Origin: an uncultured Peptoniphilaceae bacterium
GTDB taxonomy: Bacteria > Bacillota > Clostridia > Tissierellales > Peptoniphilaceae
Reading direction: 5' to 3'
DNA: 64,000 nt
Assembly: GCA_964346535.1 (NCBI GenBank)
Contig: CAYFUN010000001.1
Coordinates: forward strand, 7,593-71,592
Both the position numbers and the translations under genes were made by a program. The notes under the pieces are model-generated. The model made no database searches and was not told the origin of the DNA. It was given only the letters and a program-made list of their open reading frames with translations. Positions 3,819 to 55,377 of this stretch are shown here, in pieces; the stretch's first letter is position 1; each line of letters starts with the position of its first letter.

Positions 3819-3851
3819 AAAATGACTGAGATTTAATCTTGGTCATTTTTT
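3819..3851 (+). terminator. Rho-independent terminator after the HIT gene
   Basis: AAAATGAC...GTCATTTTTT stem with inner pairing, followed by a T-run. Confidence 0.6.
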
Positions 3852-3928
3852 GTAAGAAAAATCTTTTCGGGTATAAGTGTCTATATAAAGTTGTGAAATC
3901 TTGTGATATACTTTTGTTAGGTGAAAGC

Positions 3929-4537
3929 ATGGAAAGAAAAAATATTAAATCAGACTTTATAAATATAAATACAGAAGAAAAATCTTATTTTGGCGGGACA
4001 GCTGATCTTTTAGATTTTGATTTAGCCTTAAAAGATTTTTCTAAGACCCAGTCATCAGGATTTTTTGCTCTGACAGATTTATTACTTTATGAATTTGCAA
4101 AATATTCTGAAACCAAGGGAACTAATGGAGACCTTAATTTTGATTTTGATTCTTATAGTAAGTTTTTAAGAAACTACATAGATTCAAAAGCCTATAGGTA
4201 TTTTGGATTTTTAAGTCTAAGGTCTATAGAAGCTTATATAAAAAGACTTGCAGCCAAGAGACGAATTGAAATAAAAACTAGCTACCATGCTAATTTTATT
4301 TCGCAAAATATTTTTATAAAAATTATAGACCAGGCCCTTGAAAAAGACCATCCTCTTTTAATGGAGCTTGGAATAAGGCAAGGCTTTGACTATCCAAAGT
4401 ATTCCTTAGTTATAGGAAGAGAAGATGACAGTTTAATACTTGCATCTAGGGGAGAGAAGAAAGTAGAAAAAATTTCAAACATTTTTTCCTACTCTGATTA
4501 TCGCCTAGGCTTACTTTATATTGAAGCGTATTTATAA
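3929..4537 (+). CDS. Hypothetical protein (no family recognised)
   Basis: The ORF-track frame starts at 3839. I prefer ATG 3929 (MERKNIK...), which is preceded by AGGTGA. No motif recognised. Confidence 0.5.
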   Translation: MERKNIKSDFININTEEKSYFGGTADLLDFDLALKDFSKTQSSGFFALTDLLLYEFAKYSETKGTNGDLNFDFDSYSKFLRNYIDSKAYRYFGFLSLRSIEAYIKRLAAKRRIEIKTSYHANFISQNIFIKIIDQALEKDHPLLMELGIRQGFDYPKYSLVIGREDDSLILASRGEKKVEKISNIFSYSDYRLGLLYIEAYL

Positions 4538-4557: not shown

Positions 4558-6243
4558 ATGGACTACAAAAAGACTTATGAAAAATGGTTAAATTCAGAAA
4601 CTATAGACCAAGCTACAAAAGATGAATTAAAAAGCTTAACAGACCAAGGAGAAATTGAAGACAGGTTTTATAAGAACCTAGAATTTGGAACAGCAGGCTT
4701 ACGCGGTATTATTGGAGCTGGAACAAATAGGATGAACAAGTACACAGTAGGTAAGGCCAGTCAAGCCCTAGCTGAAGTTATAAGAGACTATGGTAAGGAA
4801 GCTATGGACAAGGGTATTGCCATTGCCTATGACGTAAGAAATTATTCTGATGTATTTTCAAAACTTGCAGCAAGTATTTTAGCTGCCAATGGAGTTAAGG
4901 TTTATTTGTTTGAAGGAATTAGACCAACTCCAATGCTATCCTTTGCCATTAGACATTTAAAAACCCAATCAGGTATAGTTGTAACAGCCTCTCACAATCC
5001 AAAAAACTACAACGGCTACAAGGTTTATTGGGAAGAAGGAGCACAAATTCTAGATATTCACGCCAATCAAATTTCTGAAAAAATAAATAAGCTGAACTTT
5101 GAAGATATTAATTGGGGATCTTATGACGACCTAGTAAATCAAGGAAAAATAATTTTAATTGGCGAAGAAGTTGACGAGGCCTATTATAAGGAAGTTTTAT
5201 CAAGGGCAGTAAATGACGATGTCGATAAAAATGTTAATATAGTTTATTCACCATTAAATGGAACTGGAAATATTCCTGTTAGAACTGTTTTAGACAGACG
5301 AGGCTTTACAAATGTTAACTTAGTAAAAGAACAAACAGAACCAGATGGATCTTTCCCAACTATTGAATATCCAAATCCTGAAGATACTAAGGCCTTTGAA
5401 TATGGTTTAAGACTTGCAAAAAATATTGATGCAGATATAATTATTGCAACAGACCCTGACTGTGATAGAGTTGCAATGATGGGCAAGAAGCCAGATGGAT
5501 CTTATTATGCCTTTAATGGCAACCAAACTGGAGTTCTTTTAATAAACTATATTTTAAATGGTCTAAAAGCTAGTGATAAATTACCATCCAATGGTGCAAT
5601 TGTAAAATCAATTGTAACTGGGGAAATGGCCAAGGCTATTTGTGACGACTTTAATGTCAAGATGTTCTCAACCTTAACTGGATTTAAAAATATTTGCTCC
5701 CTAGCTAACACTTGGGACCAAACTAAAGAATATGAATTTATTTTTGGCTATGAAGAATCTATTGGCTACACCTATGGAGACTATGTAAGAGACAAAGACG
5801 CAGTAATTTCATCTATGCTTATAGCTGAAATGGCTGGCTACTATAAAAAACAAGGCAAGAGCCTTTATCAAGTTCTATATGACCTTTATGAAAAATATGG
5901 CTACTACAAGGAAAAATTAATTTCTCTAACCTTAAAGGGCATTGAAGGTTCAATGAGAATTAAAAAGATGATGGATGTAGTTAGAAAAGAACCATTTGAA
6001 ACTATTGGCGACCTAAAAGTTTCTAGTGTCAAAGATTATTTGACAGATGATCCAGTGGTTGGCAAGTCAAATGTATTAGAGTACAGATTAGAAGATGGCT
6101 CTTGGTTTTCTGTAAGGCCATCAGGAACTGAACCAAAAATTAAACTCTATATTTATTCTAAGGACAAGAAAGAAGCCAAGGCAGAAGAAAAAATATCTAT
6201 GATAGAAGAAGTGGTCCTTGGAAGATTAAATTCAATTGAATAA
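4558..6243 (+). CDS. pgcA: Phosphoglucomutase / phospho-sugar mutase
   Basis: N-terminus closely parallels B. subtilis PgcA (YKNLEFGTAGLRG.IGAGTNRMN.YTV). Active-site TASHNPKNYNGYKV and metal loop ATDPDCDR. Confidence 0.9.
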   Translation: MDYKKTYEKWLNSETIDQATKDELKSLTDQGEIEDRFYKNLEFGTAGLRGIIGAGTNRMNKYTVGKASQALAEVIRDYGKEAMDKGIAIAYDVRNYSDVFSKLAASILAANGVKVYLFEGIRPTPMLSFAIRHLKTQSGIVVTASHNPKNYNGYKVYWEEGAQILDIHANQISEKINKLNFEDINWGSYDDLVNQGKIILIGEEVDEAYYKEVLSRAVNDDVDKNVNIVYSPLNGTGNIPVRTVLDRRGFTNVNLVKEQTEPDGSFPTIEYPNPEDTKAFEYGLRLAKNIDADIIIATDPDCDRVAMMGKKPDGSYYAFNGNQTGVLLINYILNGLKASDKLPSNGAIVKSIVTGEMAKAICDDFNVKMFSTLTGFKNICSLANTWDQTKEYEFIFGYEESIGYTYGDYVRDKDAVISSMLIAEMAGYYKKQGKSLYQVLYDLYEKYGYYKEKLISLTLKGIEGSMRIKKMMDVVRKEPFETIGDLKVSSVKDYLTDDPVVGKSNVLEYRLEDGSWFSVRPSGTEPKIKLYIYSKDKKEAKAEEKISMIEEVVLGRLNSIE

Positions 6244-6336: not shown

Positions 6337-7263
6337 ATGAATATAATTGTAGACATTGATCCATATTTAAAAAAAGCTTATAAGATTAAACAATTTTCCT
6401 CAGCAGATGACCTAGAGGCAGAAGAATTTTCTATAGAAATAAATACTAGGGCTATTAATTATTCGAGAATTTTTTCTATGTTTGATATTCCATCTGAGAT
6501 TTTCACTTATCTGGGAGGTTTTGTAGGAGACAACTACAGGGAACTTTTAAGAAGAGAAAACACCTTAGGCCAAGTTATAAATATTAAAGACTCCACTAGG
6601 GAAAAGCTTTTTATTTATGATGGAATAAGAGACTTAAAAATCTATTCAAAAACACCCCGTATTACTAATGACGAAAGAAATAATATTTACGAAGGTTATT
6701 TGTCAACTATTAAGGAAAGTGATTTTATAATTCTTCCAGAGACTAATGGTTCTATTTATGAAGAAGAGTTTTATATAAACTTTATAAATGTAGCCTTTAA
6801 GGCTGGAAAAAAATTGGCCTTATCTACTAACAAGGATAACATTAACAAATTAATTTCCTATAGGCCTCATACAATTCTTGTAGACAAAAAGGCCTTAGAA
6901 TCTTATGCCAAGAAAGAATTAAATTTCAACTGGGAAATCAACAATGTAATCAAAGACCTAATTGATCTTGGAATAAAATATGTTGTCTATTATTCTGACA
7001 AGGCTACAGTTCAAATCCAAGACAAAGACAATATTATTACAAGTTTTGGACAAGGCTTTGACTTTGATAGAAAAAACAAGGACAAGGTCCTAGCAGGTTT
7101 TATTGTTTCAATAAATAAAAACTACGACCTAGAAATGGCAGCAAAAATTGCCCTGGCTGCAAGTAACTTAGACCTAAAGAGAGAAGAACTAAATAGAGAT
7201 GCTGGAACAATAAAGGCCAGCATTAACAATATAGAAATTGAGCAAGCAAATGTTAGAAAATAA
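6337..7263 (+). CDS. PfkB-family (1-phosphofructokinase/tagatose-6-P kinase fold) protein with degenerate catalytic motifs
   Basis: By-eye colinearity with FruK/LacC: MNIIVDIDPYL ~ MI.T.TLNPS.D; LGGFVGDNY ~ GG..G; LVDKKALESY ~ IKPN..EL. The GGKG lid is replaced by NTRA, and the GAGD/GSGD anion hole by KNKDKVLAGF. Confidence 0.55.
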   Translation: MNIIVDIDPYLKKAYKIKQFSSADDLEAEEFSIEINTRAINYSRIFSMFDIPSEIFTYLGGFVGDNYRELLRRENTLGQVINIKDSTREKLFIYDGIRDLKIYSKTPRITNDERNNIYEGYLSTIKESDFIILPETNGSIYEEEFYINFINVAFKAGKKLALSTNKDNINKLISYRPHTILVDKKALESYAKKELNFNWEINNVIKDLIDLGIKYVVYYSDKATVQIQDKDNIITSFGQGFDFDRKNKDKVLAGFIVSINKNYDLEMAAKIALAASNLDLKREELNRDAGTIKASINNIEIEQANVRK

Positions 7264-25029: not shown

Positions 25030-25761
25030 GTGTTAGCAAATAGTAATAGAGAAGTTTCTAACAGTCTAAAGAGAAAGTTCTTGTATGATAAAGATTTAAA
25101 TAGCATACATTTATTAATAGATATTTTAAAAACTGAAGATTCTATTGGCAGCATAAGCCCAAGCTATACTTCTTTAAGAGATTTTAAAAAGTACATTAAA
25201 AGATCTCTTAGAGGAAGAGAAGGAAGAGATCTTGCTGCAAAAAATATTGCAGAATTAATTCATGATGATATTAACAGGCTAGAACTTTTACTTTATTTAG
25301 AAGGTTACAAGGCTGGATACAGGTCTACTAAATATGTAAATCTAATAGAAAAAAGTTTTTTAAACAATTTTGAAATAGTTTGGCTTTATTCTAAAGACCA
25401 TATTTATAAAGAACTAAATAGAAATCCAGACTTAATAAACTTAAAAACAAAATTACAAAACAATTTTAAAATAGAAATGAAAATGAGTCTTGGCTTAGAT
25501 AAGCTTATAAAATCTTATAGCAGACGAGTTATTAAGCCAAAGTTATTTTCAATAAATAAAAACCTTGATAGACAGGTTAAGATGTATGAAGGTTCTGACG
25601 GCAAAGCCATACTTAAATACGAAAATAGACTTTTTAAAAAGTCTGAAATTACAAGTTTATATAGGAGTATAATTAAATTTATTTCAGAAGATAGTATTAG
25701 AATTTTGGCAGATGCTTATTGGAATGGATTAATTGAAAAAGTATTAAGGAGATATAGATAG
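25030..25761 (+). CDS. Hypothetical protein (Lys-rich, no family recognised)
   Basis: GTG start 6 nt after TAGGAGG. Bracketed by its own promoter and a terminator-like hairpin. Confidence 0.55.
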   Translation: MLANSNREVSNSLKRKFLYDKDLNSIHLLIDILKTEDSIGSISPSYTSLRDFKKYIKRSLRGREGRDLAAKNIAELIHDDINRLELLLYLEGYKAGYRSTKYVNLIEKSFLNNFEIVWLYSKDHIYKELNRNPDLINLKTKLQNNFKIEMKMSLGLDKLIKSYSRRVIKPKLFSINKNLDRQVKMYEGSDGKAILKYENRLFKKSEITSLYRSIIKFISEDSIRILADAYWNGLIEKVLRRYR

Positions 25762-26871: not shown

Positions 26872-27888
26872 TTGGACATAGAAAATAGAATTGTCTCATC
26901 AGTTGAAAGAGACGAAGATTTAGAAATAGAAAAAGACCTTAGGCCCAAGTGGATCCAAGATTATATTGGACAAAACAAGGTAAAAGACCAACTTGGTGTT
27001 TTTATAAAGGCTGCAAAGTTAAGACAAGAATCTTTAGACCACACTCTTTTATATGGACCGCCAGGACTGGGAAAGACAACACTTGCAAATATTATAGCCA
27101 ATGAAATGGGCGTTAACATAAAGGTTACATCAGGTCCTGCTATTGAAAGACAAGGAGACCTGGCTTCTATTTTAACTAACTTAGTTGAAGGTGACGTTCT
27201 CTTCATTGACGAAATACACAGGCTAAACAAGTCTATAGAGGAAATTTTATATCCTGCTATGGAAGACAATGCCTTGGATATAATTATAGGTAAGGGTCCA
27301 ACTGCAAGGTCTGTTAGACTAGACCTGCCTAATTTTACCTTAGTTGGTGCAACTACTAGGGCTGGACTTTTAACATCTCCACTTAGAGACAGGTTTGGAG
27401 TAATTTTAAACTTAGAACTTTATAACATTGAAGACCTGGTTAAAATTGTAAAAAGATCTGCTAGTATTTTAAATATACAAATCGACCAAGAAGGAGCAGA
27501 AGAAATTGCCAGAAGGTCAAGAGGGACTCCAAGAATAGCCAACAGACTTTTAAAAAGAGTTAGAGACTATGCTGATGTAATTGGCAATGGTTATATAAAT
27601 TTAAGTCTTGCCAAAAAAGCCTTAGACCTAATGGAAATTGACAACCTAGGTTTAGATAGAACAGACAGGAAAATAATTCAAACAATGATAGAATCTTTTC
27701 CAAACCGTCCAGTAGGTATAGACACTTTAGCAGTTGCTACAGGGGAAGACAAAACAACCCTAGAAGATGTTTATGAGCCATATTTAATAAGAATTGGTTT
27801 TATGTCAAGGACCCATAGAGGAAGAATTGTAACAAAAAAAGCCTATGACCACTTAGGCTTAGAATATTTAGTAGATGATAATGATTAG
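26872..27888 (+). CDS. ruvB: Holliday junction DNA helicase RuvB
   Basis: Walker [12 protein letters not shown], Walker B LFIDEIHR, and [18 protein letters not shown] start. Confidence 0.95.
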
Positions 27889-27898
27889 AGGTTAAATA

Positions 27899-30041
<2,143 letters not shown>

Positions 30042-30059: not shown

Positions 30060-30323
30060 ATGCCACAACAATATTCAGGAATAATTATGATGTTAGTAAT
30101 GTTGGTATTTTTTTACTTATTCTTAATTAGGCCACAGAAAAAGAAAGAAAAAGAATTTGAACAAATGAGAAATTCTCTAGCTGTAGGCGACAATATCATT
30201 ACTATCGGAGGTATAGTTGGTAAGGTAGTTATTGTAAAAGACGACTATATTACGATAGAAACTAGCGGTATGAACACTAGGTTAGAAATTACCAAATGGG
30301 GCGTAAGCGCTGTAATTAAATAG
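30060..30323 (+). CDS. yajC: Preprotein translocase subunit YajC
   Basis: Single TM segment followed by RPQKKKEKE and a GD.I.T.GG..G motif. Confidence 0.9.
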   Translation: MPQQYSGIIMMLVMLVFFYLFLIRPQKKKEKEFEQMRNSLAVGDNIITIGGIVGKVVIVKDDYITIETSGMNTRLEITKWGVSAVIK

Positions 30324-30334
30324 TGGAGGAAATT

Positions 30335-30484
30335 ATGGAACACATTAAAACATTAACTGGAAAATCTTTAAAAGAAACAGCTTCATATGCAGGCTGTGGC
30401 GAATGCCAAACTTCATGCCAATCAGCATGTAAAACTTCTTGCACAGTTGGTAATCAAAAGTGCGAAAATGAAAAAAACAACTAA
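30335..30484 (+). CDS. scfA: SCIFF six-cysteine peptide (ranthipeptide precursor); not in the supplied ORF track
   Basis: GGAGG SD 5 nt before ATG 30335. Translation MEHIKTLTGKSLKETASYAGCGECQTSCQSACKTSCTVGNQKCENEKNN carries the family hallmark GCGECQTSCQSACKTSCTVGNQxCE. The maturase gene lies directly downstream. Confidence 0.9.
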   Translation: MEHIKTLTGKSLKETASYAGCGECQTSCQSACKTSCTVGNQKCENEKNN

Positions 30485-30487
30485 TTT

Positions 30488-30510
30488 GAAGTGGTTTACC
30501 ACTTCTTTTT
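30488..30510 (+). terminator. Intercistronic hairpin/attenuator between the SCIFF precursor and its maturase
   Basis: GAAGTGG-TTTA-CCACTTC followed by TTTTT, 18 nt upstream of the maturase ATG. Confidence 0.65.
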
Positions 30511-30527: not shown

Positions 30528-31874
30528 ATGATTCATAAATACTTTTTAAATGACAAATATATAGTTCTAGACGTTGCAAGTGGATCAGTCCATCTGGTTG
30601 ATGAATTAACCTATGACTTACTAGATGACTATCAAACAATGTCCAAGGAAGAATTAATAGATAAATATAAAAATAAATATGAAGAAAAAAATATAGAAAC
30701 AGCCTTGGGAGAAATAAAAAGTTTAGTTGATCAAGAACTTTTATTTACAGAAGATGACAACTCCCTAGCTGATGTAGAATATAACCCTACAAATATTATT
30801 AAAGCCATGTGCCTACACGTTGCGCATGACTGTAATTTAAAATGCAAGTATTGCTTTGCAGCCCAAGGAAACTTTAAAGGGCAAAGGTCACTAATGGACT
30901 TAGAAACAGGTAAAAAAGCCTTGAAGTTCTTATGCGAAAACTCTGGAAATAGAAAAAACTTAGAAGTCGACTTTTTTGGCGGCGAGCCACTAATGAACTT
31001 TGAAGTAGTTAAAGACCTAGTGAAATATGGCAGAGAAATAGAAAAAGACTACAACAAACACTTTAGATTTACTATAACAACAAATGGTATCTTACTTACA
31101 GATGATAAAATTGACTTTATTAACGAAAATATGGACAATGTTGTTTTGAGTTTAGATGGTAGAAAAGAAATAAACGATCCTATTAGGCCAACTTTAAATG
31201 ACAAGGGCAGCTATGACATTATAGTTCCAAAATTTAAAAAACTAATAGAATCTAGAGGAGACAAGGACTATTATATAAGAGGGACCTTTACATCTTTTAA
31301 CAAGGATTTTAGAAAGGACCTTTTAGATTATTATGAAAATGGCTTTAAAAAAGTTTCTATTGAACCAGTAGTTACAGATCCAAATGAGCCTTATGCAATT
31401 ACAGAAGAGGACTTAGATGAAATCCTAAAGGAATACGAAGAATTTTCTAAAGACTATCTTGCAATTAGAAAATACGATAAAGACTTTTTATTCTTCCACT
31501 ATATGATAGACCTAAACCAAGGGCCATGTGTTGTAAAGAGAATGGTTGGCTGTGGAGCAGGTAGTGAATATATTGCAGTAACGCCAGAAGGTGATATTTA
31601 TCCTTGCCACCAATTTGTTGGAGAAAAAGAATTTCTACTTGGCAATCTCGACACAGGAATAGTTAGAGAAGACCTAAGAGATGAATTTAAATGCGCCAAT
31701 GTAATGAACAAGGATGAATGCAACTCTTGCTTTGCCAAATATTATTGTTCAGGTGGATGTCATGCAAATGCATATTTCAACAATGGAGATATTTTGAAAC
31801 CCTATGAAATTGGCTGTGAAATGGAAAGAAAAAGAGTTGAATGTGCTATTTCAATTTTAGCCAATGAAATTTAA
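30528..31874 (+). CDS. scfB: SCIFF radical SAM/SPASM maturase
   Basis: Radical SAM CNLKCKYC cluster motif. C-terminal SPASM cysteines (CGAGSEYIAVTPEGDIYPC; CNSCFAKYYCSGGC = Cx2Cx5Cx3C). Adjacent to the precursor. Confidence 0.9.
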   Translation: MIHKYFLNDKYIVLDVASGSVHLVDELTYDLLDDYQTMSKEELIDKYKNKYEEKNIETALGEIKSLVDQELLFTEDDNSLADVEYNPTNIIKAMCLHVAHDCNLKCKYCFAAQGNFKGQRSLMDLETGKKALKFLCENSGNRKNLEVDFFGGEPLMNFEVVKDLVKYGREIEKDYNKHFRFTITTNGILLTDDKIDFINENMDNVVLSLDGRKEINDPIRPTLNDKGSYDIIVPKFKKLIESRGDKDYYIRGTFTSFNKDFRKDLLDYYENGFKKVSIEPVVTDPNEPYAITEEDLDEILKEYEEFSKDYLAIRKYDKDFLFFHYMIDLNQGPCVVKRMVGCGAGSEYIAVTPEGDIYPCHQFVGEKEFLLGNLDTGIVREDLRDEFKCANVMNKDECNSCFAKYYCSGGCHANAYFNNGDILKPYEIGCEMERKRVECAISILANEI

Positions 31875-31892: not shown

Positions 31893-31921
31893 TTGACATT
31901 TTGCTAATGAAATGCTAACAT
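31893..31921 (+). promoter_or_regulatory. Sigma-A promoter for the rplU operon
   Basis: TTGACA, 17 nt spacer, TAACAT. Confidence 0.6.
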
Positions 31922-31927
31922 TAATTG

Positions 31928-32005
31928 GTATGAGCCGCTCTGACAAGGTTTAAAAACTATTTAGTACCTTCGAAGGCGAGACTGGATAAGAGGAGGTGTC
32001 CGTTA
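31928..32005 (+). promoter_or_regulatory. Candidate L21 ribosomal-protein leader (5' UTR of rplU-prp-rpmA)
   Basis: An untranslated leader of about 78 nt between the promoter and the AGGAGG SD, containing small hairpins (for example CCTTCGAAGG). Its position matches the Bacillota L21 leader, but the structure was not verified. Confidence 0.4.
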
Positions 32006-32314
32006 ATGTATGCAGTAATTGAAACTGGCGGTAAGCAATATAAAGTTGAAAAAGGCGATATATTAAGAGTTGAAAAACTTGATGCTGAAGTTGGCGATAA
32101 GGTAGTTATTGATAAAGTATTTTTAGTTGCTAATGGCGACGACCTAAAAATTGGTGCTCCATATGTAGAAGGATCAAAGGTTGAAGCTGTTGTGAAAAAA
32201 CACGACAAGGCTAAAAAGATTATAGTTTACAAATACAGAGCTAAGAAAAACTATCGTAAAAAACAAGGTCACAGACAACCTTATACTGAAATTGAAATCG
32301 AAAGTATTAACTAA
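32006..32314 (+). CDS. rplU: 50S ribosomal protein L21
   Basis: [18 protein letters not shown] canonical N-terminus. Confidence 0.97.
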
Positions 32315-32661
32315 TGATAGAAGTAAAGCTAATTAAAGAAAATGAGAAATTTAAATCTGTGCTCGTTACAGGTCATGCAGGCTATGCAGACTCTGGCTAC
32401 GATCTAGTATGTGCTTCTGTAAGTTCACTGGCCATGGGCCTAAGTAATTACTTATTAGAAGTAGAAAAAATATCCATGGACGACTTAAATTTTCATGCCA
32501 TAGAAAATGAAGAATCTTCTTTACTTTCTATAAATATTGAAAATCCATCTATTTTTAATAGACCAGGAGTTCAAAGTGGCTTTAAATTTTTTGAAATTTC
32601 CATTCTTTCTTTAATTCAAGATTACAAGGATTATTTAAAACTAGTTTACCGGGAGGTGTAG
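32314..32661 (+). CDS. prp: Ribosomal-processing cysteine protease Prp (YsxB family)
   Basis: GHAGYA...DLVCASVS motif (catalytic His/Cys). Located between rplU and rpmA. Confidence 0.9.
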
Positions 32662-32663
32662 TG

Positions 32664-32942
32664 ATGATAAAATTAAATTTACAGTTTTTTGCCTCTAAAA
32701 AAGGTGTTGGTAGCTCTAGAAATGGTAGAGATAGTGAAGCTAAAAGATTAGGCGTTAAAAGATCTGACGGCCAATTTGTTAATGCTGGAAGTATTCTAGT
32801 TAGACAAAGAGGAACTAAAATTCACCCAGGTACAAATGTTGGACGTGGTGGAGACGACACTTTATTTGCCCTAGTTAGCGGAGTTGTTAAATTCGAAAGA
32901 AAAGGCAAGAAACATAAACAAGTAAGCGTATATGATGCTTAA
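32664..32942 (+). CDS. rpmA: 50S ribosomal protein L27 with N-terminal propeptide
   Basis: [24 protein letters not shown]: the Firmicute L27 N-terminal extension followed by the mature ASKKG... sequence. GGAGGTG SD before ATG 32664. Confidence 0.95.
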
Positions 32943-53804: not shown

Positions 53805-54491
53805 ATGATTAGATTAGAAAATGTTTTAAAAAAATATGACAATGGTGTCATAGCCTTAAACAATATAAATTTAAATATAAAGCTTGGAGAGTTTGTATTT
53901 TTAATTGGCCCAAGTGGAGCAGGGAAGTCAACACTCTTAAAGCTTTTGTCAAATGAAGAACTACCAACTAAGGGCAGCATTTTTATTGACAATGTAAATA
54001 TAACTAAACTTTCCAGAAGGCAGGTACCATTTCACAGAAGAAAACTAGGCATAGTCTTTCAAGACTTTAAATTACTAGCCAATAAAACTGTTTATGAAAA
54101 TGTGGCCTACGCTTTAGAAATTGTTGGAGCCAGTGGAGCTGATATAAAAAGACAAGTTCCAAATGTCTTAGCCTTAGTAAACTTATATGACAGGGCTAAG
54201 TCTTATCCAAATCAACTATCAGGTGGCGAACTTCAAAGGGTTGCTATAGCAAGAGCAGTTGTAAATAAACCACAACTTTTATTAGCAGATGAACCTACAG
54301 GAAATCTAGACGAAGATACTGCCTACGAAATTATGGAAATACTTGACAACATTAACAAAAATGGGACAACAGTTCTTATGGCAACCCATGCAAAAAATAT
54401 TGTTGACCAATATCAAAAAAGAGTTATAAGAATTGATAATGGCGTTATAGCAAGAGATGATGTAGGAGGCTACTATTATGAGGAGCCTTAG
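53805..54491 (+). CDS. ftsE: Cell division ATP-binding protein FtsE
   Basis: Walker A GPSGAGKST, ABC signature LSGGELQRVAIARA, Walker B LLLADEPTGNLD. ftsX lies downstream. Confidence 0.92.
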   Translation: MIRLENVLKKYDNGVIALNNINLNIKLGEFVFLIGPSGAGKSTLLKLLSNEELPTKGSIFIDNVNITKLSRRQVPFHRRKLGIVFQDFKLLANKTVYENVAYALEIVGASGADIKRQVPNVLALVNLYDRAKSYPNQLSGGELQRVAIARAVVNKPQLLLADEPTGNLDEDTAYEIMEILDNINKNGTTVLMATHAKNIVDQYQKRVIRIDNGVIARDDVGGYYYEEP

Positions 54492-55377
54492 ATCATTTAA
54501 GTCAATGCTAGTTAACGGCTTTACAAGTATTTGGAGAAATAAGGCTATGGGCTTTATTTCTATTTTGACTATTTTTGCCGTAATGTTAATTATGGGAATC
54601 TTGCTATTAGGTGTTTTAAATATTAACAACTATGTCAACAACATTAACCAAAGCTTAGACAAGATAGTTGTTTACTTTAACGATGATGCCAGTTTTAAAC
54701 AAATTGATAACTTAATGGAAAAGCTTAGCAAGAGAGAAGAGGTAAAAGAAATTGTTTATATTTCTAAAGACCAAGCCATGGTTGATGCCAAGGAAATGTT
54801 TAAAGACAAGGGCTTTGTTTTGAATGGCATTGAAAAAAATCCTCTTCCATCATCAATGGAAATAAAAGTATCTGACATTGCCTATGCAGAAGAGCTAGTT
54901 AAAGAACTTGAAAATAATAAGCTAGTTGAAGACAGTAGATATTTTCAAGATTGGATTAACAGGTTTATTAAAATAGACAGGGCTATAAAAATCGGATCCT
55001 TTGTAAGTTTTATAATAATTGTTAGCTTATGTGTTTTTGTAATATCAAATATTATTAAAGTTGCAATTTCATCTAGGGGAACTGAGATTGAAATTATGAA
55101 AATAGTTGGAGCAAGTGAATCTTATATAAAGGGCCCATTTATTATGGAGGGACTTTTCTATTCGTTACTAGGAGCAGTTCTTGCTTTACTTGCTATTTTT
55201 AAACTTTATGAAATGTTTATTGGCCAATATGGGACTAGTATTTATGAATATCTGTCTTTTACTTTAGTAGACATGGCAGATATAAAAAGTGATTTAATCA
55301 GCATATTTATTGCAATTTCACTTGGTATTGGAACAATTGGAAGTATAGCTTCCCTAAGAAAATATTTAAAGGTGTAA
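54478..55377 (+). CDS. ftsX: Cell division permease-like protein FtsX
   Basis: TM1, large extracellular loop, then three C-terminal TM segments with EIEIMKIVGAS. Overlaps ftsE by 14 nt. Confidence 0.9.
   Translation: MRSLRSFKSMLVNGFTSIWRNKAMGFISILTIFAVMLIMGILLLGVLNINNYVNNINQSLDKIVVYFNDDASFKQIDNLMEKLSKREEVKEIVYISKDQAMVDAKEMFKDKGFVLNGIEKNPLPSSMEIKVSDIAYAEELVKELENNKLVEDSRYFQDWINRFIKIDRAIKIGSFVSFIIIVSLCVFVISNIIKVAISSRGTEIEIMKIVGASESYIKGPFIMEGLFYSLLGAVLALLAIFKLYEMFIGQYGTSIYEYLSFTLVDMADIKSDLISIFIAISLGIGTIGSIASLRKYLKV

What the first reader, a model, noticed from the sequence alone, without database searches (positions are those of the whole stretch)
30335..30484. Unlisted 49-aa six-cysteine SCIFF (ranthipeptide) precursor embedded in the tgt-yajC housekeeping operon
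A 150-nt ORF below the ORF-track size cutoff has a GGAGG SD and encodes MEHIKTLTGKSLKETASYAGCGECQTSCQSACKTSCTVGNQKCENEKNN. Six Cys fall in the last 29 residues. The GCGECQTSCQSACKTSCTVGNQxCE core is the hallmark of the SCIFF family (six cysteines in forty-five residues), defined bioinformatically by Haft and Basu. These peptides are substrates for radical-SAM thioether (ranthipeptide) formation. The family is known, but its biological role remains unresolved. Here it lies 11 nt after yajC, with no protease or exporter gene nearby. That argues for a housekeeping or intracellular role rather than a secreted bacteriocin.
Basis: partly seen in the sequence, partly recalled or inferred. Interest (0 to 1): 0.75.

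Follow-up and report, generated by a model that had tools for sequence, protein, structure and literature searches.

The report
Ordinary SCIFF peptide and its maturase
The small gene is real and encodes a textbook member of the SCIFF family of six-cysteine peptides, followed by the enzyme that cross-links it; this pair is already catalogued in thousands of Clostridia, and its position beside yajC is a common inherited arrangement rather than a new clue to function.

Summary
Window 30335..30484 (+) encodes a 49-aa peptide with a GGAGG Shine-Dalgarno and starts 11 nt after the yajC stop. It scores 80.1 bits on TIGR03973 (cutoff 50) and 82.5 bits on PF13165.

The next gene, 30528..31874, is the maturase ScfB. 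It scores 694 bits on TIGR03974 (cutoff 425). It is 54% identical, without gaps, to the crystallised CteB, and all cluster-binding cysteines are kept.

Across 81 loci the 24-codon core shows 38,180 synonymous codon differences against 3,065 non-synonymous ones. The peptide is therefore translated and under strong selection.

Only the scfA-scfB pairing is constant (73 of 74 loci). The usual wider order is tgt-yajC-(TIGR04086 membrane protein)-scfA-scfB-secDF-recJ. This window is a minority variant: it lacks TIGR04086 and secDF, and rplU follows scfB. The same two-gene cassette also occurs alone on Bacillus cereus-group plasmids, so the operon context says little about function.

A stable hairpin after scfA is present in most loci and probably limits read-through into scfB.

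The argument against a bacteriocin role is already in the literature, and a quorum-sensing role has been reported. Verdict: already known, low interest.

The parts
30335..30484 (+). scfA: 49-aa SCIFF precursor. Leader is about residues 1-20. The Cys-rich core runs from C21 to E44, followed by a short polar tail.
   Evidence: Translation. TIGR03973 80.1 bits against 50. PF13165 82.5 bits. 23 invariant columns among 32 homologues. Strong purifying selection on core codons. Residues 1-21 align to the CteA leader fragment of PDB 5WGG chain B, but only weakly (E 0.61).
30325..30329 (+). Shine-Dalgarno GGAGG, 5 nt upstream of the scfA ATG, inside the 11-nt yajC-scfA gap.
   Evidence: Read directly from the sequence.
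30488..30510 (+). 7-bp hairpin GAAGTGG-TTTA-CCACTTC followed by TTTTT, lying between scfA and scfB. Proposed to be a leaky terminator or an mRNA 3'-stabilising element.
   Evidence: Terminator scan. Fold of -14.7 kcal/mol, z = -2.96. A stable hairpin is present at the same position in 67 of 78 related spacers. The 43-nt spacer leaves no room for a separate promoter, and none is predicted.
30528..31874 (+). scfB: radical SAM/SPASM thioether-forming SCIFF maturase, 448 aa. Its own ribosome-binding site, AAGGGAG, lies 8 nt upstream.
   Evidence: TIGR03974 694 bits against 425. It falls below the cutoff of the 'not_ScfB' exception model (584 against 855). E 1.4e-167 to CteB, PDB 5WGG/5WHY. 54% identity without gaps, with CX3CX2C at C102/C106/C109 and nine further shared Cys. 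Radical_SAM, Fer4_12 and SPASM domains.
30060..30323 (+). yajC, the Sec translocon accessory subunit. It is the immediate upstream neighbour, same strand.
   Evidence: TIGR00739 78.2 bits against 44.2.
26872..30041 (+). ruvB-queA-tgt, the upstream part of the same tightly spaced gene string. Gaps are 10-18 nt or overlaps.
   Evidence: NCBIfam equivalog hits. ORF coordinates. ruvC and ruvA lie just upstream.
31893..31983 (+). End of the unit: a promoter-like TTGACA-17-(TG)TAACAT, then a sub-threshold L21 leader ahead of rplU. No terminator is detected after scfB.
   Evidence: Promoter scan. Rfam RF00559 24.9 bits against a gathering score of 36, E 0.054. Sequence.

Best explanation
This is a canonical scfA-scfB (SCIFF ranthipeptide) cassette in the chromosome of a low-GC member of the Clostridia. 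Its closest peptide relatives are from Tissierellales and Neofamilia.

Proposed mechanism, with the basis for each step:

1. Transcription (inferred from spacing). scfA is transcribed as the tail of the ruv-queA-tgt-yajC string and translated from its own GGAGG.
2. Attenuation (inferred; the structure is shown to be conserved). A modest hairpin plus T-run directly after scfA stops or stabilises most transcripts. The precursor mRNA would then outnumber the maturase mRNA. scfB has no room for a promoter of its own and is reached by read-through.
3. Modification (by homology to the biochemically characterised CteB and Tte1186; not tested here). The N-terminal domain of ScfB, which by homology to CteB is the RiPP recognition element (RRE), binds the peptide leader (MxHIKTL..LK.T..GG-like, residues 1-20). 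The radical SAM and SPASM clusters then make at least one non-alpha thioether from Cys32 to the gamma-carbon of Thr37 or Thr34. Both threonines are invariant in this family.
4. Function (unresolved). The final role of the modified peptide is not known. The near-identical core across the whole class, one copy per genome, and the lack of immunity, export and protease genes fit a conserved physiological or signalling role rather than an antibiotic.
For: - Family membership of both genes is above curated cutoffs.
- ScfB is 54% identical without gaps to CteB, and all 13 aligned Cys are kept.
- The core CGECQTSCQSACKTSCTV(G/A)NQxCE is invariant apart from positions 25, 26, 39 and 42 in 81 loci. Synonymous codon differences number 38,180 against 3,065 non-synonymous. 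In the leader the figures are 21,141 against 23,682.
- scfB directly follows scfA in 73 of 74 loci that have room for it.
- Hairpin. It is conserved as a structure with varying sequence. 67 of 78 spacers have z < -2. 28 of 78 pass a strict terminator rule, against 34 of 761 control windows inside the scfB coding sequence.
- No + strand promoter-like site is predicted between 30036 and 31110.
- Chemistry and state of knowledge come from reviews PMC8326336 and PMC8172795.
Against: - Nothing contradicts the identification.
- The operon structure, the attenuator role of the hairpin, and the cross-link position and number are inferred, not measured.
- Published work disagrees on Thr37 against Thr34 as the acceptor.
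- The hairpin controls are simple: mononucleotide shuffles and coding-sequence windows.
- Leader removal and the fate of the product have no candidate gene in the window.
Confidence: 0.9

Rival explanations
1. The modified peptide is an exported signal involved in quorum sensing or developmental regulation. Export and leader removal would be done by genes located elsewhere in the genome.
For: Reviews report that Chen et al. 2020 disrupted the precursor and radical SAM genes in Clostridium beijerinckii. Sporulation genes went down and the agr locus went up (PMC8102284; listed as 'quorum sensing' in PMC8326336). A pangenome preprint finds at most one such cluster per species, conserved across clostridial orders.
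Against: - No exporter, leader protease or receptor kinase lies next to the cassette in this window.
- None is present on the Bacillus plasmids either.
- The leader is hydrophilic and is not a Sec signal peptide (read from the sequence).
- A signal with an identical core in hundreds of species would carry no species specificity, unlike agr or RRNPP peptides.
- The knock-out phenotype is indirect.
Confidence: 0.3
2. The modified peptide acts inside the cell or at the membrane in a housekeeping role. One version has it working with the Sec accessory module (YajC, SecDF) and the TIGR04086 membrane protein. Another has it acting as a redox or metal-binding cofactor-like peptide.
For: - 56 of 62 loci with room on both sides keep the cassette within 5 kb of yajC, tgt or secDF.
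- A TIGR04086 membrane protein lies directly upstream in 39 of 72 loci.
- The cassette sits between yajC and secDF, which (from general knowledge, e.g. E. coli tgt-yajC-secDF) form an ancient operon.
- No export genes are present.
- The core is under extreme constraint.
Against: - Synteny within one class can be inheritance alone.
- Each link is dispensable. This window has no secDF, recJ or TIGR04086 anywhere in 64 kb, even at E <= 1.
- Lachnospiraceae often lack yajC upstream.
- Acetoanaerobium and the Bacillus plasmids carry the pair with none of these neighbours.
- No paper in the searchable library links SCIFF with yajC, secDF or tgt.
Confidence: 0.25
3. It is a bacteriocin, that is, an antimicrobial ranthipeptide.
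For: Many radical-SAM thioether peptides (sactipeptides) are antimicrobial.
Against: - There is no immunity, transporter or protease gene.
- The core is essentially identical across families of Clostridia, the opposite of the diversification seen in bacteriocins.
- The published view already argues against this role (PMC8326336).
Confidence: 0.03
4. The ORF is a chance open frame in the yajC-scfB spacer and is not expressed.
For: Only its small size.
Against: - HMM scores are far above cutoffs.
- It has a good ribosome-binding site.
- Homologues form 6013 clusters.
- The core shows a 12:1 synonymous to non-synonymous ratio.
- It is almost always (73 of 74 loci) followed directly by its enzyme.
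Confidence: 0.005

Closest known systems
CteA/CteB (thermocellin system) of Clostridium (Acetivibrio) thermocellum; PDB 5WGG and 5WHY
   Same: - The same two-gene system.
- The maturase is 54% identical over 447 residues without a gap, with all Fe-S cysteines kept.
- The leader residues 1-21 align to the crystallised leader fragment, though weakly (E 0.61).
- Cys32, Thr34 and Thr37, the residues named in the published cross-link, are present at the same numbers here.
   Different: The leader differs at about half of its positions, and the C-terminal tail differs. The flanking genes of the C. thermocellum locus were not examined here.
Tte1186a/Tte1186 of Caldanaerobacter subterraneus, the first SCIFF characterised in vitro
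   Same: The same family and the same reported Cys32-Thr37 thioether.
   Different: It was not compared by sequence here. Knowledge of it comes only from the reviews.
PapA/PapB (freyrasin) of Paenibacillus polymyxa and QhpD
   Same: Related radical SAM/SPASM thioether-forming enzymes. The window's enzyme scores 264.8 bits on the PapB model and 277 on the QhpD model.
   Different: Both scores are below their curated cutoffs (340 and 453). PapA uses repeated Cys-X3-Asp motifs and beta-carbon links, and the peptide here has no such motif. The window's enzyme is not a member of either family.
Plasmid-borne scfA-scfB of the Bacillus cereus group
   Same: The same annotated gene pair. The peptide is 62.5% identical.
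   Different: It is carried on 200-290 kb plasmids, many of them conjugative. It has no yajC, tgt or secDF nearby, and unrelated genes flank it.

Membership tests
SCIFF precursor (TIGR03973 / PF13165) | Profile score above the curated cutoff | tested here: met
   80.1 bits against 50. 82.5 bits against 27.
SCIFF precursor (TIGR03973 / PF13165) | A peptide of about 45-50 residues with six Cys spaced C-x2-C-x3-C-x3-C-x3-C-x6-C, and the core CGECQTSCQSACKTSCTVxNQxCE | tested here: met
   Cys at 21, 24, 28, 32, 36 and 43. The core matches the invariant columns of 32 and of 81 homologues.
SCIFF precursor (TIGR03973 / PF13165) | Encoded directly upstream of a TIGR03974 radical SAM maturase | tested here: met
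   scfB starts 43 nt downstream. The same arrangement is found in 73 of 74 related loci.
SCIFF precursor (TIGR03973 / PF13165) | Found in Clostridia | tested here: met
   The best named relatives are Neofamilia, Tissierellales and Tissierellia at 85-91% identity. Window GC is about 33% with a Firmicute gene order. The organism itself is not identified.
ScfB maturase (TIGR03974) | Score above the curated cutoff, and not captured by the 'ScfB-related orphan' exception model | tested here: met
   694.1 bits against 425. NF040492 scores 584.2, below its cutoff of 855.
ScfB maturase (TIGR03974) | Radical SAM CX3CX2C motif plus the SPASM auxiliary-cluster cysteines | tested here: met
   C102/C106/C109, plus C334, 342, 360, 398, 401, 407, 411, 430 and 439, all aligned with CteB cysteines. 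Radical_SAM and SPASM Pfam hits.
ScfB maturase (TIGR03974) | N-terminal leader-binding (RRE) domain | tested here: inconclusive
   Residues 1-90 align without gaps to the CteB N-terminus. No separate RRE model or structure was run.
Ranthipeptide (RiPP class) | Radical-SAM-installed thioether to a non-alpha carbon in the mature peptide | not testable with these tools
   Needs mass spectrometry and NMR of the co-expressed product. The acceptor residues Thr34 and Thr37 and the donor Cys32 are present.
Bacteriocin / antimicrobial RiPP cluster | Linked immunity, export (ABC or PCAT) and leader-protease genes | tested here: not met
   None in the 64-kb window. Prp (32314..32661) pairs with an N-terminally extended L27, and the only ABC system is FtsEX at 53805..55377.
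Peptide quorum-sensing locus (agr- or RRNPP-like) | Precursor linked to a processing or export protein and a cognate receptor | tested here: not met
   No such genes flank the cassette in the window or on the Bacillus plasmid. This lowers locus-type membership but does not exclude a signalling role.

The most novel reading that the evidence does not exclude
The SCIFF cassette may be functionally tied to the Sec accessory machinery. It was inserted between yajC and secDF of the ancient tgt-yajC-secDF operon, and it is usually preceded by a small TIGR04086 membrane protein. The cross-linked peptide would then act at the membrane, for example as a small partner or regulator of YajC/SecDF/TIGR04086, rather than as a diffusible natural product. 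This window would be a reduced variant that keeps only the yajC link.
Probability: 0.08. Interest if true: 0.65.

Novelty: already known. Interest (0 to 1): 0.15.

Why it matters
For this window, the result simply adds a correct annotation (scfA) that an ORF-size cutoff had hidden.

More generally, SCIFF is among the most conserved peptide-modification systems of Clostridia, and its function is still unsettled. The comparative results obtained here are modest leads:

- Only the scfA-scfB pair is constant.
- A hairpin is conserved between the two genes.
- The core is under extreme purifying selection.
- A TIGR04086 membrane protein and secDF are frequent but dispensable neighbours.
- The bare cassette can travel on Bacillus plasmids.

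None of these changes the picture of the family, and none is specific to this locus.

Tried and rejected
- Rfam at gathering thresholds over the whole window found nothing. An E-value scan around the locus gave only a sub-threshold L21 leader and a spurious snoRNA hit. The hairpin is therefore not a described RNA family.
- The peptide's best PDB hit was the ferredoxin-type Cys motif of epoxyqueuosine reductase QueG (E 0.044; domain E 0.86). This is tempting because queA and tgt are neighbours, but the score is at chance level for a Cys-rich query and the cysteine spacing differs. Rejected.
- An exact-sequence look-up of the window's ScfB in public assemblies found no record, so the source organism was not identified.
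- The primary papers (Haft and Basu 2011; Bruender 2016; Grove 2017; Hudson 2019) are not held in the library. Their content is cited only through reviews. I could not check whether Haft and Basu already described the yajC/secDF context.
- Full-text searches combining SCIFF with yajC, SecD/SecDF, tgt, TIGR04086, queuine or translocase gave no relevant paper.
- 'Phage' hits to the peptide are UNVERIFIED faecal contigs. The two examined carry bacterial scfB-secDF context, one with TIGR04086 upstream and one with recJ downstream. I rejected these two as evidence of phage carriage; the other eight were not examined.
- My first greedy ORF calling mislabelled antisense shadows of scfB in GC-rich loci. 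It was replaced by HMM searches on stop-to-stop frames.
- Structure prediction was not run, because a 54% identical crystal structure already exists.

Full report
**1. The observation**

An ATG at 30335 opens a 49-codon frame that ends with TAA at 30482-30484. GGAGG lies at 30325-30329, 5 nt before the start. The TAG of the upstream gene ends at 30323, which leaves an 11-nt gap. The translation is MEHIKTLTGKSLKETASYAGCGECQTSCQSACKTSCTVGNQKCENEKNN, with Cys at 21, 24, 28, 32, 36 and 43.

The mechanical ORF list gives a 53-aa frame from a GTG at 30323. The family alignment fixes the start at the ATG, because the consensus begins MKHIKTL.

**2. Identity of the two genes**

The peptide scores 80.1 bits on NCBIfam TIGR03973, 'six-cysteine ranthipeptide SCIFF', against a cutoff of 50. 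It scores 82.5 bits on Pfam PF13165 against a cutoff of 27.

The gene 43 nt downstream (30528..31874, 448 aa) scores 694 bits on TIGR03974, 'thioether cross-link-forming SCIFF peptide maturase', against a cutoff of 425. It stays below the cutoff of the 'ScfB-related orphan' exception model.

This enzyme matches the crystallised CteB (PDB 5WGG and 5WHY) at E 1.4e-167, over 447 residues without a single gap. Identity is 54%. Thirteen cysteines are shared, including the CX3CX2C motif at 102/106/109 and the SPASM cysteines.

Residues 1-21 of the peptide align to the CteA leader fragment co-crystallised with CteB, but the match is weak (E 0.61).

The identification stands.

**3. Is the small ORF really a gene?**

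A database search returned 6013 homologous clusters, nearly all 45-52 aa long. The closest named ones come from Neofamilia, Tissierellales and Tissierellia, at 85-91% identity.

I fetched 80 loci from species-representative genomes and compared the 24 core codons (C21 to E44) across 81 sequences.
- 79 of the DNA sequences are distinct, yet the amino-acid core is nearly invariant.
- Synonymous codon-pair differences number 38,180, against 3,065 non-synonymous ones. The non-synonymous differences are almost all at positions 39 and 42.
- In the 20 leader codons the figures are 21,141 against 23,682.

This is direct evidence of translation and of very strong selection on the core peptide.

**4. 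Surroundings in the window**

The window is a low-GC (about 33%) stretch of chromosome, and nearly all its genes are on the + strand. It contains only housekeeping genes:
- prmA, rsmE, mtaB-like, comEC, holA, lepA and hemW-like;
- then ruvC, ruvA, ruvB, queA, tgt, yajC, scfA and scfB;
- then rplU, prp, rpmA, obg, yhbY, nadD, yqeK, rsfS, ridA, comEA, glgP, trpS, valS, and further on ftsEX.

Gaps from ruvB to scfA are 10-18 nt or overlaps, which fits co-transcription. That is an inference.

No terminator follows scfB. A promoter-like element (31893-31921) and a sub-threshold L21 leader (24.9 bits against 36) precede rplU.

There is no dedicated peptide exporter or leader protease. Prp (32314..32661) belongs with the N-terminally extended L27 next to it. 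The only ABC system is FtsEX, 23 kb away.

**5.

Four nucleotides after the scfA stop lies a 7-bp hairpin (30488-30505) followed by TTTTT. It folds at -14.7 kcal/mol with z = -2.96.

The whole scfA-scfB spacer is 43 nt. Once the hairpin, the T-run and the scfB ribosome-binding site are accounted for, no room is left for a promoter, and none is predicted. scfB must therefore be expressed by read-through.

In the related loci the spacer has a median length of 99 nt.
- It folds much better than shuffled versions in 67 of 78 cases (mean z = -3.6).
- 28 of 78 pass a strict terminator rule, against 34 of 761 equal-sized control windows inside scfB.
- The stems differ in sequence between lineages, so it is the structure that is kept.

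I read this as a leaky terminator or a 3'-stabilising hairpin that gives more precursor mRNA than enzyme mRNA. From general knowledge, this is a common design in peptide-modification operons. The role is inferred, and the controls are simple.

**6. How general is the yajC context?**

I ran HMM searches with family profiles built from the loci themselves and counted the results.

| Feature | Loci with feature / loci with room |
|---|---|
| scfB directly follows scfA | 73 / 74 |
| secDF downstream within 5 kb | 53 / 67 |
| recJ downstream | 33 / 67 |
| yajC upstream within 5 kb | 18 / 72 |
| yajC directly abutting scfA, as in this window | 5 / 72 |
| TIGR04086-family membrane protein upstream | 43 / 72 |
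| TIGR04086 immediately upstream | 39 / 72 |
| Any link to yajC, tgt or secDF | 56 / 62 |

The typical order is (ruvB-spoIID-queA-tgt-yajC)-(TIGR04086)-scfA-scfB-(gamma carbonic anhydrase)-secDF-recJ. In several Lachnospiraceae, tgt-yajC lies after secDF instead.

This window is a minority form. It has no TIGR04086, secDF or recJ anywhere in 64 kb, even at E <= 1, and the rplU operon follows scfB.

One caveat applies. The 80 loci are the best matches to this peptide and are dominated by Lachnospiraceae. The fractions describe this sample, not the whole class.

**7. The cassette outside that context**

A protein-level search of plasmids found scfA on 28 Bacillus cereus-group plasmids and one Brevibacillus plasmid. 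In the B. mycoides plasmid that I examined, scfA and scfB are annotated as such. They stand alone among unrelated genes, with no yajC, secDF, TIGR04086, exporter or protease.

An Acetoanaerobium noterae replicon also carries the pair without these neighbours.

Ten 'phage' hits are UNVERIFIED faecal contigs. The two I examined carry the ordinary bacterial scfB-secDF context, one with TIGR04086 upstream and one with recJ downstream. They are most likely bacterial fragments.

The two genes therefore form a self-contained and transferable module. Their position in a housekeeping operon is weak evidence about function.

**8. What is known, and how this compares**

The following comes from the reviews held in the library.
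- SCIFF peptides were defined by Haft and Basu (2011) and are widespread in Clostridia. This spread has already been taken to argue against an antimicrobial role (PMC8326336).
- Tte1186 and CteB form a thioether from Cys32 to Thr37 in vitro. Hudson et al. found Cys32 to Thr34 through the gamma-carbon in E. coli, which led to the class name ranthipeptide. Whether the other cysteines are cross-linked remains open.
- Chen et al. (2020) disrupted the genes in C. beijerinckii and saw sporulation genes fall and agr rise. They proposed a quorum-sensing role.
- A recent pangenome preprint finds these clusters conserved across clostridial orders, with at most one per species.

The locus here agrees with all of this, and Cys32, Thr34 and Thr37 are present. 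I found no paper in the library that discusses SCIFF together with yajC, secDF, tgt or TIGR04086. The primary papers were not available, so I cannot say the synteny is unreported.

**9. Mechanism and rivals**

- Shown here: gene identities, motif conservation, selection on the core, constancy of the scfA-scfB pair, and the conserved hairpin.
- Taken from homology to characterised enzymes: leader binding by the N-terminal domain, and radical-SAM thioether formation at Cys32.
- Inferred: co-transcription with yajC, attenuation at the hairpin, and read-through into scfB.
- Open: the function of the product.

My ranking of the functional readings is as follows.

| Reading | Probability |
|---|---|
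| Exported signal | about 0.3 |
| Intracellular or membrane housekeeping role, including a Sec/TIGR04086 link | about 0.25 |
| Bacteriocin | about 0.03 |
| Spurious ORF | below 0.01 |

**10. Verdict**

The interpretation adds nothing that is new for the family, and it over-reads the context.

This is an already known system in one of its usual locations. Standard pipelines annotate it automatically. Interest is low, at 0.15.

The most novel reading still open is a functional tie to the YajC/SecDF/TIGR04086 membrane module. I put its probability at about 0.08, and it would be moderately interesting if true.

Noticed in passing
window 30488-30510, and the scfA-scfB spacers of L001-L080: A stable hairpin, often followed by a T-run, follows scfA in most loci. 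67 of 78 spacers have z < -2. Stem sequences differ between lineages, with GCAGC...GCTGC stems common in Lachnospiraceae. It matches no Rfam family.
   Followed up: partly
L003, L004, L009, L011, L014, L017 and others (for example L007:5840-6223): A small TIGR04086-family membrane protein of about 115-130 aa lies immediately upstream of scfA on the same strand in 39 of 72 loci. It stays with scfA even where yajC has moved away. It is absent from this whole window. Its function is unknown.
   Followed up: partly
L007 (uncultured Clostridia bacterium BRZ_RS__bin5), SCIFF at about 5001-5138: This is the only locus with room in which no scfB follows the SCIFF gene. A TIGR04086 gene lies downstream instead. 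It may be an orphan precursor or a rearranged or mis-assembled metagenome-assembled genome.
   Followed up: no
L013 5255-6753 (Clostridium sp. OF09-36): scfB is split into two overlapping frames. This is either a frameshift, making it a possible pseudogene, or a sequencing error.
   Followed up: no
L081 (Bacillus mycoides plasmid p212, 7001-8633) and 27 other B. cereus-group plasmids: scfA-scfB occurs as a bare two-gene cassette on large plasmids, many of them conjugative, outside the Clostridia. An Rpn-family recombination-promoting nuclease/putative transposase gene lies nearby.
   Followed up: partly
L083 (MT835472.1) and L084 (MT835702.1): GenBank 'UNVERIFIED: Bacteriophage sp.' faecal contigs carry bacterial chromosomal context around scfA: TIGR04086-scfA-scfB-secDF in L083 and scfA-scfB-secDF-recJ in L084. 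They are probably bacterial fragments in a phage collection.
   Followed up: partly
L082 (NZ_CP154629.1, Acetoanaerobium noterae 'plasmid pTPELB2', 2.63 Mb): A 2.6-Mb circular record is listed as a plasmid and has only 4 annotated features in PLSDB. It looks like a chromosome. Its scfA-scfB has no yajC, tgt or secDF within 7 kb.
   Followed up: no
window 31936-31983 (+): A sub-threshold match to the ribosomal protein L21 leader (RF00559, 24.9 bits against 36, E 0.054). It lies just upstream of rplU and after a promoter-like TTGACA-17-TAACAT.
   Followed up: no
window 32314-32942 (+): The Prp cysteine protease lies between rplU and an L27 gene. The L27 family match starts at residue 10, which indicates the N-terminal extension that Prp removes. 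This accounts for the only protease gene near the SCIFF cassette.
   Followed up: partly
window 30392-30457 (peptide residues 19-41): The SCIFF core gives a weak hit (E 0.044; domain E 0.86) to the ferredoxin-type Cys motif of epoxyqueuosine reductase QueG (PDB 5D6S). This is curious because queA and tgt are neighbours. I judged it to be chance similarity between Cys-rich sequences.
   Followed up: yes
window 27888-27899: Related loci with the ruvB-queA string carry a SpoIID/LytB-domain gene between ruvB and queA (L002, L008, L015, L022, L071). This window has only a 10-nt gap there, and no SpoIID homologue anywhere in 64 kb.
   Followed up: no
window 25030-25761, 3839-4537 and 6337-7263 (+): Three ORFs of 232-308 aa have no Pfam hit. 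25030-25761 was also run against NCBIfam, with no hit there either. One of them lies directly upstream of ruvC.
   Followed up: no
window 28854-28935: The longest tgt frame overlaps queA by 65 nt, and the Tgt model matches only from residue 28. The true tgt start is probably downstream of the queA stop.
   Followed up: no
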